Assembly: GCF_009914755.1 (NCBI RefSeq)
Contig: NC_060928.1
Source: the human T2T-CHM13v2.0 reference genome, Homo sapiens
Direction: 5' to 3' (one strand)
Length of the DNA: 64,000 nt
Below the pieces are notes generated by a model. It was not told where the DNA came from, made no database searches, and saw only the letters and a program-made list of their open reading frames with translations. The position numbers were made by a program, and so were the translations under genes. Of the stretch, positions 26,244-31,639 are shown in pieces (positions within the stretch are counted from its first letter, which is position 1; every line of letters starts with the position of its first letter).

Positions 26244-26344
26244 CTTATTCATAAACTGTATAAAATTAAAAATCGAGCTCACACACATTAAGCTCAAGTG
26301 TGGATTTCATGTTAGCTGGAATTACCGAGTAAGACCAAAGTGTC

Positions 26345-29300
26345 TTTAAACACAGACTTTAATGGTAACAATTCCTTTAAGCTCAATTAACTTCAGCTAT
26401 TACAAGTCTTATGCAGATGTCACTATTAGACAATATTTAGTGACTTGCACTGGGTTCCTCATAAAAGACAAATTCACTTAAAAGTGTAATCAACAATCAT
26501 TAACAGTTTTGTTATGCCAACACAAAACATGGCTGAGTTACCCCCCTCCCCGCCCAAATTACTAACACAGCATGATCAGTACCTTAAGTATACTTCAACT
26601 AAGCCATTTCAACAAACAAACAAAAAAAAACAAACAAAAAAAAAAGTGAGTGTTTCACTACCCCTGAGACCACTAGTTAACTGTGGTTCATACTTTAAAA
26701 TGTGAGTACACCCACACAAGAAAGCAAATTAATCAGTTTTAAAAAATCTGATTATCACATTGCAAACTCGCCCAGGAAAAACAAACTGAGTCATTTAAAA
26801 TGTAAATTTACCATTAACAGGCCAACTGGACCCTAATTCGGTTTATGCATTAAAAGATTTAGGAAATACAAAGACATAGTCAAAACTGATTCTAATACTC
26901 AGTTGGGTCCTATACATGGCACTAGTAATGTCAAATTACTGGGTGGAGTGGGGCAAAGAGGGCAAATTCTTAGATTCTTTTAAGATTTCATTGTACATAT
27001 CTCATGTCCAGTGTCCATACATTCAAAAATGTTGGTTTTCCAGGTACTTTACTGTTCTTTTAAACCTGGAGAAGCCTCTATGGCTTATTCCCTTAGAAGC
27101 AACAAATGAAATGATGTATAAAGCATCAAGTCAAAGATACAGAGAACTGGACACATCCACTAATTGTTATGACAATCAAAGAAGTCATCTCCGTAAATAC
27201 CTAAGGGTTGTCTAAGGCTATAAAGGTCAATTTGAAAGCCAGTTAGGGATCCACCGTGTTTCATAAAAGTGTCTTACACTCATGTTTGGCTTTCAAGAAG
27301 TGATATGCCTACTAAAGCTGTTATTTTGAGACTATATGCATCTCAGAAGTAATTTTGAAAATAGAGCCAAAGAGCAGTTTTTCTTACCTTGTGGAGCAGA
27401 ATGTTAACTAATTTCTCATTCATAATTTGAATCCAAAAAAGTTATGCAGTATGACATCTACCCTGAAGGAGCCGTTTTAAGCAAAACACAAAATGAAAAA
27501 ATTCACTCATTGGAAAAACTGCGTAGCTGGTTTTTTCCCCAATGAAATGATTACAGAATTAACAAAGCCAGAACATCTTCAGAAGGCATGCATTTCACTT
27601 CCAGTTTAGAGAAGAACCTTAAGTCAATAAATCATGTCCAAACTACATATTAAAATGTTTATAAAAAGTAAGTTTTAACATTTATTTCTAGCTTTCCACA
27701 TGTGTGTGCAGACAAGGAATAAGATTGCACGTAAGTGTAAGCAGTGCAAAAATGTGGAAGTGGAGGAGTCACAGATGTGCTAGAACTTTAAGAAATAAAG
27801 CAGTGAACAAAATCAAAATAAACAGGAAAAATGTAAAACTATGGGATCAGAATTAGGAAAGGTGAAGAATGGTAATGCCCTTGTTACTACAGAAGTTAAA
27901 TCAGTGGCACAGATAGCACTTGTCAAACAAAAAACAATCCAATAGCATTGACTTTTATTCATTCATGTTAAGTCACCTGAAATGATATCTGTTGCATTTA
28001 AATGCTCATTAATGTAAATGGCTGAACAAATCCATTTCAATGGATACTCAATATCCCACATAGATAAGTCACTTCAACACAGCCTCATGACAACTCCCAC
28101 ACCAAAACAGTACTTTATTTTGCAAATTTTGACCCATTATTACTCCCATGTTGTTTTTTTTCAGCTGTCAAGTGTACAAGGTGAAGAGAAATTTCAGTTA
28201 GACAGGGGCTGCACCTGGAAAATAAATTTCTTAAACTCCATAAACACATTTCAAAACTGCTGGGTCCCAAAAGTCCATCTATGAACTCTAGGGCTGCCAG
28301 TATCATGTGCAGCACATTAAAGCTACACTATCCAAATAGCTTATTAATTCTGCATAAATCAGGTCAAGCAATGTGTCAACCTGTAACAGACTGTGCACTT
28401 TAACTGAACATGGCAAAATATTCACTCTTTCGAACTTTACATCATCATTTGATGTCAAACAATGAAGCAAATCCCAACAGTATATACAAAAAACAGCTTT
28501 GCATTTACAAAAGATTGTTTCCCATACTGATTAATCCAGGCAGCTAACTCATTGGTTTATGCAACTTTATTGAAGAAAAATAAATCAATTACTAGCAGAG
28601 CTATTAGTTGATCACTCATCCATTGACAACTTGCATCATTTATTCAGTGCTATATTAAACAGTGTATTGGAAGATAGATTAACTAATAGCTCCAAGCCTC
28701 CTAACAATTTAAATGAAAATTACAAAATGTTTGAGACCCTATTTTGGAATACAAAGGGTGTTTGACTTCCAATTTCCATTCTCTGTAGAACAAGAACAGG
28801 TCATTCCTTTATTGACATGCATAAAATACATCACATTTTCTGTTCTGCTGATGCTATAAATTCAATACCAATTCTCCAGCCACATCAGTTATGAGCATAA
28901 AGCATATCATGTAACCTCAAATCTCTAACAGTGGAAGGCTTAAACAAGAATGGATGCTGCTAGAATAATGCTGTATCCTTTGATGTGACAACTGAGCATC
29001 CATCTCCCTCCCCCTCAGATGATTTCTTCAGCATGTTAGAGCAGTGAGGAATGGTTTTAGTCTCATAACCAAGTTAGAGTGAAGACATTGGCCACATAAT
29101 ACACATGCTCCATTTTTTTTTTAAAAAATTCTGAGTCTTGGGCAACTGTTCTCTTGTAACTACTTTACAGTTTCTAAAAGCAGTTATTGTCCAAAGCTGG
29201 AAGAACTTAAGTCTTCTCAGATGAGCATGTGAATGAATGGAGGGAGGTAAACAAAAAATAAAATTAAAAAAGATGAGGTCTGATAGGGGAGCAGCCGGAT

Positions 29301-29376
29301 AAGAAAATCAAAAAAGGAACAGTAATTTAAAGTTTATTCCAGCTATAATGCAGGTTATTCTGACTTTAAGGTAGCA
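26345..29376 (-). other. UBE2D3: UBE2D3 long 3'UTR (~3 kb)
   Basis: AT-rich stretch after the stop with no recognisable repeats and multiple poly(A) hexamers; repeats (MER5) resume below ~26245. The distal end is inferred from ATTAAA at 26358-26363. Confidence 0.75.
26358..26363 (-). terminator. Candidate distal poly(A) signal ATTAAA
   Basis: Plus-strand tttaat at the edge of the repeat-free UTR block. Confidence 0.6.
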
Positions 29377-29422
29377 TCACATGGCATACTTCTGAGTCCA
29401 TTCCCGAGATATTCTGTTGTAC
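29377..29422 (-). CDS. UBE2D3: UBE2D3 terminal coding exon (YNRISREWTQKYAM*)
   Basis: tttatttacag|G TAC AAC AGA ATA TCT CGG GAA TGG ACT CAG AAG TAT GCC ATG TGA; the exon sum is 444 nt = 147 aa plus stop. Confidence 0.98.
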
Positions 29423-30290: not shown

Positions 30291-30915
30291 GGAGAATTTT
30301 TATATTGTTTAAATATTAACTAGCTTTATTTCAAACCAAGAACCAAATATGGTCCAACAACTTTTCTAAACTTTTTAAAAAGTTCTTTCTACCAATTCAT
30401 TGTCATCTCCTAAGGATACTCTCTCAAAAAGCCAGCACTTTAAAACAAAGGCTTTATTTAGCATACAGGGAGCCACAAAGTACAGCTGACGCTAATGCAT
30501 GCTTGTCAGTAATGAACATTTAGTTTAGATGCTTAGGCTTAAAAGTGTTTTTCCCTTACATTACTATCTCCTGGCAAAATTTGAACTAAACCACCACATT
30601 CTGTATAGGATTGGTACAAAGTCTCAAGCTAAAATTTAAACACCATGATAGTTTGAAAAAAAAAAAAGATACTACATAAATTCCCATTTCTTACTAGTGC
30701 TATTGTAACTGCTTTGCCATGCAATACTTTCAAGCAGTAACGGCTACCAGATATTTACTTTCACGTTAAACAGAGACCAAGCAGTTAAATGTACAGTTTT
30801 CAGAAGACTGCCATATTTGTTACCTTTTGTTAGTTAATACAGTGCCTTAACGCATGCAGCACTCAAGTGCTGGCAGTACCATAATAAGCGCACCATAGAG
30901 TGCAGATCCTCTTAC

Positions 30916-30965
30916 CCTACAACATAGCGTATTTCTCTGTCCACTCTCTTGCTAACCTATTGTAC
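30916..30965 (-). CDS. UBE2D3: UBE2D3 alternative C-terminal cassette exon (YNRLAREWTEKYAML*), 50 nt; stop at 30917-30919
   Basis: caattag|G TAC AAT AGG TTA GCA AGA GAG TGG ACA GAG AAA TAC GCT ATG TTG TAG G|gtaaga. Same phase as, and homologous to, the last exon; matches the 148-aa isoform as I recall it. Confidence 0.93.
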
Positions 30966-31393
30966 CTAATTGAACAAGTACACTTAGCATTAATTATAAC
31001 ATATGAAAGTTATAATGGTTAAGTTGAACATAAATATAATTCAAATATTTGAGAAATTTAGACCAAATTTTTACAATAGTACTAACATTTTTGGAAAAAC
31101 ATGCTTGGGGTAAAGAAAAATTTGCTTTCTTCCCCAAAAGTTGAGAATAAAGTGATACTGTTTAACACGCTAGGAAAAAAAAAACAACAATAAAACATTT
31201 TAGAGGGGAGCATTCACTGTCACATAAGCTAAAGCCTAGTTAAGTTTTTTTAAATAACCACATTTCAATAGCTTTCTCCATATTTTAACTATTATCTTAC
31301 TAAATATCAAGTCTTCTTGGCACTGTCACAAGCAAAGTATAAGCCTAACTCATTAAGTAAAACCACTTTTATAATAACTTTTTAACATACTTA

Positions 31394-31639
<246 letters not shown>

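What the first reader, a model, noticed from the sequence alone, without database searches (positions are those of the whole stretch)
30916..30965. Duplicated C-terminal exon swaps Ser138 for Ala and escapes NMD
Seen: a 50-nt exon in the last intron encodes YNRLAREWTEKYAML* versus the terminal YNRISREWTQKYAM* (11 of 14 residues identical). Many synonymous codon differences indicate an old duplication kept under protein-level selection. It has its own donor 1 nt after TAG, so inclusion turns the canonical coding end into 3'UTR; by the 50-55 nt rule it escapes NMD and shares the same UTR. As I recall, this isoform is annotated and Ser138 is a reported phosphoregulatory site, so splicing would toggle phospho-control of the E2. 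It is invisible in the ORF track, but probably not new.
Basis: partly seen in the sequence, partly recalled or inferred. Interest (0 to 1): 0.8.

Follow-up and report, generated by a model that had tools for sequence, protein, structure and literature searches.

The report
Known alternative UBE2D3 exon 7a
This is a real, already annotated 50-base alternative exon of the human ubiquitin enzyme gene UBE2D3 that replaces the protein's last 14 residues with an old sister version lacking the regulatory serine 138; what it does is still untested.

Summary
Window 30916-30965 (-) is a 50-nt exon with an AG acceptor and a GTAAGA donor. It is read in the same phase as the terminal coding exon and gives YNRLAREWTEKYAML* instead of YNRISREWTQKYAM* (11 of 14 residues, 29 of 42 nt identical).

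Eight of the 11 conserved codons differ synonymously. Random changes reproduce that pattern in 4 of 200,000 trials, so the peptide has been under selection.

The stop ends 1 nt before the junction, so the 50-55 nt rule predicts no NMD. That is a rule-based inference, not something shown here.

The exon is not new. RefSeq lists it, and Roman-Trufero et al. 2020 call it the "minor alternative exon-7a", diagnostic of vertebrate UBE2D3. The same paper shows that Ser138 is an amniote-specific Aurora B site and that S138A is stabilising and embryonic lethal.

Exon 7a appears to be older than Ser138, so phospho-toggling cannot explain why it was kept. And its codons resemble the last exon of the chr7 paralog (36/42 nt) more than 7b.

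None of 9 retrocopies carries 7a, which fits minor use. I saw no junction-read, PSI or peptide data. Already known; moderate interest.

The parts
31395..31488 (-). UBE2D3 coding exon 6 (upstream constitutive exon). It ends ...GATAA|gtaagt and leaves AA to be completed to Lys133 by the first G of either 7a or 7b.
   Evidence: gene table given with the finding.
30966..30990 (-). Acceptor region of exon 7a (atgctaagtgtacttgttcaattAG). The pyrimidine tract is weak: 10 of 18 pyrimidines at -20..-3, against 14 of 18 for exon 6 and 11 of 18 for 7b.
30916..30965 (-). Alternative exon 7a, 50 nt. It encodes (K133)YNRLAREWTEKYAML and the stop.
   Evidence: RefSeq exon of other transcripts (gene table). 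Named exon-7a in PMC7306689.
30950..30952 (-). GCA codon, Ala138 of the 7a isoform.
   Evidence: codon table; position counted.
30917..30919 (-). TAG stop of the 7a isoform. It ends 1 nt before the 7a/7b junction.
30910..30915 (-). Donor of exon 7a, GTAAGA (exon ends AGG). Matches the consensus at -1 and at +1 to +5.
29377..29422 (-). Coding part of the terminal exon 7b: (K133)YNRISREWTQKYAM plus TGA. It becomes 3'UTR when 7a is included.
29407..29409 (-). TCT codon, Ser138 of the canonical isoform. This is the Aurora B site according to PMC7306689.
   Evidence: paper passages.
26341..29376 (-). 3'UTR shared by both isoforms (annotation). The 7a isoform's UTR is 47 nt longer: 1 nt of 7a plus the 46 nt of 7b that were coding.
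   Evidence: Gene table given with the finding; arithmetic.

Best explanation
Window 30916-30965 (-) is the annotated minor alternative exon '7a' of human UBE2D3 (UbcH5c). It is an ancient homologous copy of the coding part of the last exon ('7b').

Shown from the sequence: when 7a is spliced between exon 6 and 7b, it is read in the same phase and ends the reading frame at its own TAG. The product is a 148-aa E2 whose alpha-4 helix tail carries L137, A138, E143 and an extra L148. The 46 coding bases of 7b then become 3'UTR.

Shown statistically: the peptide has been kept by purifying selection while synonymous sites became saturated.

Inferred from the 50-55 nt rule: the stop lies 1 nt before the last exon junction, so the mRNA should not be an EJC-dependent NMD target.

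Inferred from PMC7306689 plus the sequence: the 7a isoform has no Aurora B acceptor at position 138. It should therefore behave like the stabilised S138A protein, forming a small phospho-insensitive pool of UBE2D3. This is a secondary, amniote-only consequence. The exon appears to predate the A138S change, so whatever kept it most likely lies in the residues that are unique to 7a among the five human exon-7 copies (E143, L148, perhaps L137).
For: Anatomy.

More than chance. It is the only 11/14 hit in 64 kb, and the best match in any of 40 shuffled windows was 7/14.

Selection: 8 of 11 conserved codons differ synonymously, and no difference falls at a second codon position. Nei-Gojobori gives pN 0.09 against saturated pS. 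Placing 13 random differences on 7b gives 3 or fewer residue changes with no stop in 4 of 200,000 trials. A conservative version (7 differences, 2 or fewer changes) succeeds in 1,315 of 200,000.

Annotation: the gene table lists 30916-30965 as an exon of other UBE2D3 transcripts.

[quoted passage not shown] The bioRxiv version speaks of 'the diagnostic exon-7a'. S138 is an amniote-specific Aurora B site whose phosphorylation destabilises the protein, and S138A raises the protein level about 3-fold and is embryonic lethal.

Specific to this gene: the chr5 (UBE2D2), chr10 (UBE2D1) and chr7 paralogs each have a single exon-7 copy within 10 kb after exon 6, and all three encode Ala138, Q143 and end at M147 (paralog names).
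Against: I saw no junction reads, PSI values, ribosome data or discriminating peptides. Usage and translation of 7a rest on the RefSeq annotation and on the word 'minor' in one paper.

The supplementary methods of PMC7306689, which should describe exon 7a and its conservation, could not be opened. I have therefore not seen any non-human 7a sequence.

None of the 9 UBE2D3 retrocopy loci contains 7a; all 9 carry the direct 6|7b junction. The acceptor is weak. Both point to low inclusion, at least in the germ line.

The lethality of the S138A knock-in implies that a stable A138 protein is tolerated only at a low level or in other contexts.

NMD escape is a rule-based prediction, not an observation.
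Confidence: 0.8

Rival explanations
1. One reading: the exon exists to toggle phospho-control. On this view, regulated inclusion of 7a is the selected means of switching UBE2D3 between an Aurora-B-sensitive (Ser138) and an insensitive (Ala138) form.
For: S138A is the one published functional difference at this position. 7a encodes Ala in place of Ser within R-x-S. A validated 'UBE2D3 exon 10' splicing change in DM1 muscle shows that some exon of this gene is regulated (passage in PMC5399563), but which exon is unknown.
Against: PMC7306689 uses the exon as a marker of UBE2D3 across vertebrates and reports Ala138 in the main exon of anamniotes, so in those lineages there is no S/A difference to toggle. 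Synonymous saturation between 7a and 7b also points to an age far beyond amniotes. The papers call the exon 'minor', and none of 9 retrocopies contains it. The 2022 review by the same group contains no occurrence of 'splic' or 'exon'.
Confidence: 0.25
2. Splicing noise on a relic: 7a is an old duplicated exon that is still recognised occasionally but has no function of its own.
For: Weak acceptor, 'minor' usage, absent from all 9 retrocopies, and no paper on the isoform's function found.
Against: A neutral relic of this age should have lost the peptide. The observed pattern arises in 4 of 200,000 random trials, or 1,315 of 200,000 under the conservative model. The frame, the stop and both splice sites are intact. 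The exon is reported as conserved enough to diagnose orthologs.
Confidence: 0.1
3. An RNA-level role: 7a matters as an RNA element (for 3'UTR structure, termination context or mRNA stability) rather than through the residues it encodes.
For: Inclusion changes the termination context and lengthens the UTR by 47 nt.
Against: The substitution pattern preserves amino acids, not nucleotides (differences by codon position 4/0/9). The fold of 150 nt around the exon is not unusual (z = -1.48; 16 of 200 shuffles fold at least as well). There is no homology in the flanks.
Confidence: 0.05
4. A rival account of origin: 7a is not a recent tandem copy of UBE2D3's own 7b. It is either an exon older than the UBE2D2/UBE2D3 split, later lost from UBE2D2, or an exon that exchanged sequence with the chr7 paralog (probably UBE2D4).
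For: 7a matches the chr7 exon 7 at 36/42 nt, 13/14 residues and 10/14 third positions. It matches 7b at 29/42 nt, 11/14 residues and 5/14 third positions. A genome-wide DNA search with 7a finds only itself and chr7 (87% over 46 nt). Against the third-position background from exons 5+6, 7a~chr7 at 10/14 exceeds the UBE2D3-to-chr7 level of 27/65 (Fisher one-sided P 0.04). The 5/14 shared by 7a~7b and 7a~chr5 falls below the UBE2D3-to-UBE2D2 level of 45/65 (Fisher one-sided P 0.02).
Against: Only 14 codons are available, several comparisons were made, and the direct contrast of 10/14 against 5/14 is not significant (P 0.13). Shared purine-rich codons could reflect splicing-enhancer constraint or retained ancestral states. 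No intron homology supports a transfer. No second exon-7 copy survives in the three paralogs.
Confidence: 0.4

Closest known systems
UBE2D3 'exon-7a' of Roman-Trufero et al. 2020 (PMC7306689; bioRxiv 10.1101/750505)
   Same: By position and description it is the same object: a minor alternative exon upstream of the predominantly used exon 7b, specific to UBE2D3. It is also a RefSeq exon in the gene table.
   Different: In the text I could read, the paper uses it only as an orthology marker. The Ala138, E143, L148, stop-placement and NMD points made here do not appear in the passages seen, and the supplement could not be opened.
Alternatively spliced homologous (tandem-duplicated) exons, usually mutually exclusive (class recalled from general knowledge; no paper read here)
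   Same: Two neighbouring exons of common origin, with the same acceptor phase, substitute one protein segment for a homologous one. The duplication is old and the peptide is constrained.
   Different: The two exons are not mutually exclusive at the RNA level. 7a has its own donor and is spliced onto 7b, and exclusivity is achieved by the stop codon in 7a. UBE2D3 did not co-occur with 'homologous exons' (0 papers), and the one paper co-occurring with 'exon duplication' was unrelated.
Terminal coding exon of the chr7 UBE2D paralog (probably UBE2D4; the name is recalled, and no PDB chain carries it)
   Same: It is the closest sequence to 7a in the genome: YNRLAREWTQKYAM, 13/14 residues, 36/42 nt, same acceptor phase.
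   Different: It is that gene's only exon-7 copy within 10 kb. It has Q143, no Leu148 and a TAA stop, and a strong pyrimidine tract (16/18).
Engineered Ube2d3-S138A allele (PMC7306689)
   Same: Ala at position 138 removes the Aurora B acceptor. The published effect is a roughly 3-fold higher protein level.
   Different: The knock-in converts the major exon 7b and is embryonic lethal. The natural 7a isoform is minor and also differs at 137, 143 and 148. Its stability and activity have not been measured in anything I saw.
Premature-stop 'poison' cassette exons that trigger NMD
   Same: A cassette exon that introduces an earlier stop codon.
   Different: Here the stop ends 1 nt before the last junction, well inside the 50-55 nt limit, and the exon encodes a conserved homologous peptide.

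Membership tests
Homologous (duplicated) alternative exon pair | The two exons are significantly similar in sequence. | tested here: met
   11/14 residues and 29/42 nt identical. It is the only such hit in 64 kb, and the best of 40 shuffled windows reached 7/14.
Homologous (duplicated) alternative exon pair | Same reading phase and same acceptor position, so that one can replace the other. | tested here: met
   Both begin AG|GTAC, with the G completing Lys133.
Homologous (duplicated) alternative exon pair | Mutually exclusive inclusion in the mRNA. | tested here: not met
   7a is an internal exon with its own donor, and 7b carries the only annotated 3' end, so 7a transcripts also contain 7b. 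Exclusivity exists only at the protein level, through the TAG (gene table). Actual junction use cannot be tested with these tools.
Homologous (duplicated) alternative exon pair | Both copies kept under purifying selection. | tested here: met
   pN 0.09 against saturated pS; 4 of 200,000 random trials reproduce the pattern. Only a single genome was used, and cross-species dN/dS was not testable.
Homologous (duplicated) alternative exon pair | Conservation of the alternative exon in other species. | not testable with these tools
   No vertebrate genomes are held. The only support is the statement in PMC7306689 and its preprint that exon-7a is diagnostic of UBE2D3. The supplement was unreadable.
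mRNA exempt from EJC-dependent NMD (50-55 nt rule) | The stop codon lies less than 50-55 nt upstream of the last exon-exon junction. | tested here: met
   TAG at 30919-30917, exon end at 30916, a distance of 1 nt. The behaviour of the mRNA itself was not tested.
Aurora B phospho-acceptor at UBE2D3 position 138 | Ser or Thr at position 138 in an R-x-S context. | tested here: not met
   7a reads R136-L137-A138-R139 and 7b reads R136-I137-S138-R139. The status of S138 as an Aurora B consensus site is taken from PMC7306689.
UBE2D (UbcH5) family C-terminal alpha-4 segment | Sequence agrees with the same segment of the paralogs. | tested here: met
   12 to 13 of 14 residues identical to the chr5 (UBE2D2), chr10 (UBE2D1) and chr7 copies. 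Paralog identity comes from the best PDB names for exon 6; chr7 has no namesake chain.
MBNL-regulated cassette exon (considered because of 'UBE2D3 exon 10' in DM1) | A cluster of YGCY motifs next to the exon. | tested here: not met
   3 YGCY in the 100 nt downstream. 8% of all 100-nt windows, and 12% of GC-matched windows, have as many.

The most novel reading that the evidence does not exclude
Exon 7a is older than the UBE2D2/UBE2D3 split, and its codons are of the chr7 (UBE2D4-like) type. After the amniote A138S change in 7b, it became the only way for the UBE2D3 locus to make an Aurora-B-resistant, stable E2. Its inclusion level would then set a phospho-insensitive dose of UBE2D3. That dose must be held low in the early embryo, where S138A is lethal, but it may be raised elsewhere. 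The unexplained 'UBE2D3 exon 10' event that is mis-spliced in myotonic dystrophy muscle could be this exon.
Probability: 0.2. Interest if true: 0.6.

Novelty: already known. Interest (0 to 1): 0.35.

Why it matters
UBE2D3 is a workhorse E2, and its dosage matters: the S138A knock-in, which raises the protein level about 3-fold, kills mouse embryos (PMC7306689). The gene itself encodes a natural Ala138 version through exon 7a, and the published work I could read treats that exon only as an orthology marker. If the 7a isoform is stable and active, its inclusion level is an unmeasured variable in every experiment on Ser138 phospho-regulation, and splicing would be a second way of setting UBE2D3 dose. 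If it is only a rarely used relic, the finding is an ordinary annotated isoform. The exon also shows how a stop placed 1 nt before a junction lets a cassette exon replace a C-terminus without NMD.

Tried and rejected
1. Cross-species conservation could not be tested. I did not build a joined query.
2. The supplement of PMC7306689 (supplementary Methods on exon 7a) timed out three times.
3. Literature on the isoform's function:
   - 'UBE2D3' + 'homologous exons': 0 papers.
   - Three 7a peptide motifs: 0 papers.
   - 'P61077-3': 1 paper, a bare protein list.
   - 'mutually exclusive': 76 papers. I opened three of the 12 listed, and the UBE2D3 passages shown name no exon.
   - 'exon duplication': 1 unrelated paper.
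   - 'exon 7': 8 papers. I opened two of them, and neither passage concerns 7a.
   - 'alternative splicing' + 'C-terminal' + 'isoform': 27 papers. The two further papers I opened concern promoters and a truncated 118-aa isoform.
   - 'UBE2D3 exon': 1 paper.
4. 'UBE2D3 exon 10' in DM1: I could not find out which exon this is. Nakamori 2013 is not held, and paper reading closed.
5. MBNL-motif enrichment next to 7a: none.
6. Local RNA structure: not unusual (z = -1.48).
7. Homology of intron flanks, between 7a and 7b and between paralogs: none beyond the exons.
8. A second exon-7 copy in the chr5, chr10 or chr7 paralogs: none at 7 or more of 14 matches within 10 kb.
9. TE exonisation was rejected, because the exon is homologous to UBE2D exons.
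10. A poison-exon reading was rejected because of the stop position.

Full report
**Observation**

On the minus strand, window 30965-30916 reads AG|GTACAATAGGTTAGCAAGAGAGTGGACAGAGAAATACGCTATGTTGTAGG|GTAAGA. Exon 6 (31395-31488) ends ...GATAA|gtaagt. The first G of the 50-nt exon therefore completes Lys133, just as the first G of the terminal exon does.

Translation gives YNRLAREWTEKYAML* for the 50-nt exon and YNRISREWTQKYAM* for the terminal exon. I spliced the annotated coding parts in a script. This gave a 147-aa canonical protein without internal stops, and a 148-aa protein when the exon is included. The two differ at I137L, S138A and Q143E, plus an added L148.

The stop TAG occupies 30919-30917. 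One base (30916) follows it, then the donor.

**Is it more than chance?**

A six-frame scan of all 64 kb found only two 14-mers with 6 or more matches to the 7b peptide: 7b itself, and this exon at 11/14. In 40 block-shuffled windows the best match was under 6 (1 window), 6 (32) or 7 (7).

At the nucleotide level 29 of 42 coding bases agree. Three codons are identical, 8 differ only synonymously and 3 change the residue. Differences by codon position are 4, 0 and 9.

Nei-Gojobori counts give pN 0.09 with synonymous sites saturated (10 synonymous differences on about 7.3 synonymous sites). I placed 13 random differences on 7b. This gave no stop and at most 3 residue changes in 4 of 200,000 trials. 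A conservative model (7 differences on a neutral 7a branch, at most 2 changes) succeeded in 1,315 of 200,000 trials.

Homology stops at the exon borders. The flanks show chance-level identity (31 and 22 of 100), and BLAST finds nothing beyond the exon. This is an old duplicate whose peptide has been kept by selection.

**What is known**

- The gene table supplied with the finding lists 30916-30965 among 'exons of other transcripts' of UBE2D3.
- Roman-Trufero et al. [quoted passage not shown]
- The preprint (10.1101/750505, passages) speaks of 'the diagnostic exon-7a' in discussing axolotl.
- The same paper reports that position 138 is Ala in anamniotes, invertebrates and unicellular eukaryotes, and Ser in amniotes.
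- It reports that S138 is an Aurora B site, and that phosphorylation makes the protein insoluble and lowers its level.
- It reports that S138A raises the protein level about 3-fold and is an early embryonic lethal gain of function (also the review PMC9790923, passages).
- The review has no occurrence of 'splic' or 'exon'.
- The supplement that should describe exon 7a could not be opened. What it says about the exon's sequence or conservation is unknown to me.

**Mechanism**

Shown from the sequence: including 7a replaces the last 14 residues and ends translation in 7a. The 46 coding bases of 7b join the 3'UTR, and both isoforms share the annotated 3' end.

Inferred from the established 50-55 nt rule: a stop 1 nt before the last junction should not trigger EJC-dependent NMD.

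Inferred from the paper plus the sequence: R136-L137-A138 has no acceptor for Aurora B. The isoform should therefore resemble the stabilised S138A protein at that position.

Features that fit low usage:
- The 7a acceptor has 10 of 18 pyrimidines at -20..-3, against 14 of 18 for exon 6 and 11 of 18 for 7b.
- The authors describe the exon as 'minor'.
- All 9 UBE2D3 retrocopy loci examined (L004-L009, L011, L012, L018) carry an uninterrupted 6|7b junction, and none matches 7a. I left out L003, which is the gene itself, and L010, which is the chr5 paralog.

The donor of 7a is strong (AGG|GTAAGA).

**Correction to the functional story**

The authors use exon 7a to recognise UBE2D3 across vertebrates and call it diagnostic when discussing an amphibian. 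They also report that in anamniotes the main exon encodes Ala138. The Ser/Ala contrast is therefore an amniote by-product and cannot be why the exon was retained.

All four canonical exon-7 copies in this genome (7b and the chr5, chr10 and chr7 paralogs) have Q143 and end at M147. All three paralog copies have Ala138. Only 7a has E143 and L148. These residues, together with position 137, are the better candidates for what selection has preserved. The paper notes that variable alpha-4 residues face outward and may mediate protein contacts.

**Origin**

The window's genome is held. A DNA search with 7a hit only itself and chr7:44110949-44110994, at 87% over 46 nt. That hit is the terminal coding exon of a UBE2D paralog, reading YNRLAREWTQKYAM*.

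I located exon 6 and exon 5 of the paralogs by protein search and fetched 10 kb from each. The best PDB names for their exon-6 peptides are UBE2D2 for chr5 and UBE2D1 for chr10. The chr7 copy has no namesake chain. From recall, it is UBE2D4.

Each paralog has a single exon-7 copy.

Identities over 42 nt:

| Pair | Identical nt |
|---|---|
| 7a - 7b | 29 |
| 7a - chr5 | 30 |
| 7a - chr10 | 32 |
| 7a - chr7 | 36 |
| 7b - chr5 | 40 |

Third-position identities, compared with the background from exons 5+6:

| Comparison | Third positions | Background | Fisher one-sided P |
|---|---|---|---|
| 7a - 7b | 5/14 | UBE2D3-UBE2D2 45/65 | 0.02 |
| 7a - chr5 | 5/14 | UBE2D3-UBE2D2 45/65 | 0.02 |
| 7a - chr7 | 10/14 | UBE2D3-chr7 27/65 | 0.04 |

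The direct contrast of 10/14 against 5/14 is not significant (P 0.13).

On the face of it, 7a diverged before UBE2D2 and UBE2D3 did, and it is codon-wise closest to the chr7 gene. But the sample is 14 codons, several comparisons were made, and shared purine-rich codons could be ancestral or imposed by splicing enhancers. I treat this as a lead, at about 0.4.

**Dead ends**

- Local RNA structure is not unusual (z = -1.48).
- YGCY motifs are not enriched next to the exon.
- None of the papers I opened from ten full-text searches treats the function, expression or peptide evidence of the 7a isoform. The papers I opened for UBE2D3 splicing concern promoters, a truncated isoform, or events whose exon is not named in the passages shown.
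- 'P61077-3' occurs in one protein list, with no peptides shown in the passages I read. From recall, that accession is this C-terminal variant.
- 'UBE2D3 exon 10' is cited as a validated mis-splicing event in DM1 muscle (PMC5399563 passage; gene list in 10.1101/728881). I could not establish which exon that is, because the source paper is not held and paper reading closed.

**Verdict**

The structural interpretation is right: a duplicated C-terminal exon, its own stop and donor, an Ala for Ser138, and predicted NMD exemption.

The functional claim of a phospho-toggle is plausible but untested. It is at best a secondary, amniote-specific consequence of a much older, rarely included exon.

Novelty: already known. 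Interest is moderate, because the natural Ala138 isoform has not, in anything I could read, been connected with the lethal S138A phenotype, and that connection is directly testable.

Noticed in passing
L040:2186-2200 (chr7 paralog, right after its exon-7 coding part): The stop of the chr7 paralog sits inside ...GCTAT|GTAAGTGCC, a perfect donor-like GTAAGT. In 7a a GTAAGA donor follows the stop by 1 nt. This may be a relic of a shared ancestral exon with a donor, or it may be chance.
   Followed up: no
window 29380-29421 versus L038:3521-3562 (chr5, UBE2D2): 7b and exon 7 of UBE2D2 are 40/42 nt identical, with 13/14 third positions. Exon 5 of the two genes shares 29/35 third positions, but exon 6 only 16/30. 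Synonymous conservation between these paralogs is therefore uneven and high. Against the pooled background, 13/14 is only borderline (P 0.04-0.06).
   Followed up: partly
L004/L020/L045 (chr20:5333334-5333616, minus strand): A UBE2D3 retrocopy that is 98-99% identical over exons 5, 6 and 7b, with an open frame of 155 aa and no stops in the matched part. It is young and may still be coding.
   Followed up: no
chr1:121068376-121068571, 148878490-148878685, 142918179-142918374 (L025-L027, L046-L048): Three near-identical intronless UBE2D-like copies. Their exon-5 and exon-6 matches lie about 4 bases apart with no intron between them, at 82-85% and 63-67% residue identity. They lie in what look like duplicated chr1 segments.
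   Followed up: no
window 31416-31488: According to the supplied gene table, the last exon of the plus-strand lncRNA LOC102723704 (31416-31563) overlaps UBE2D3 coding exon 6 antisense. Its last intron spans exon 7a.
   Followed up: no
UBE2D3 gene, exon unknown: 'UBE2D3 exon 10' is cited as a validated mis-spliced event in DM1 skeletal muscle (PMC5399563 passage). Exon numbering differs between sources, so it may or may not be 7a.
   Followed up: partly
UBE2D3 gene as a whole: A 2026 paper (PMC13764104, passage) lists UBE2D3 among genes with 4 or more ultraconserved elements. I could not check whether any of them covers 7a or its flanks.
   Followed up: no
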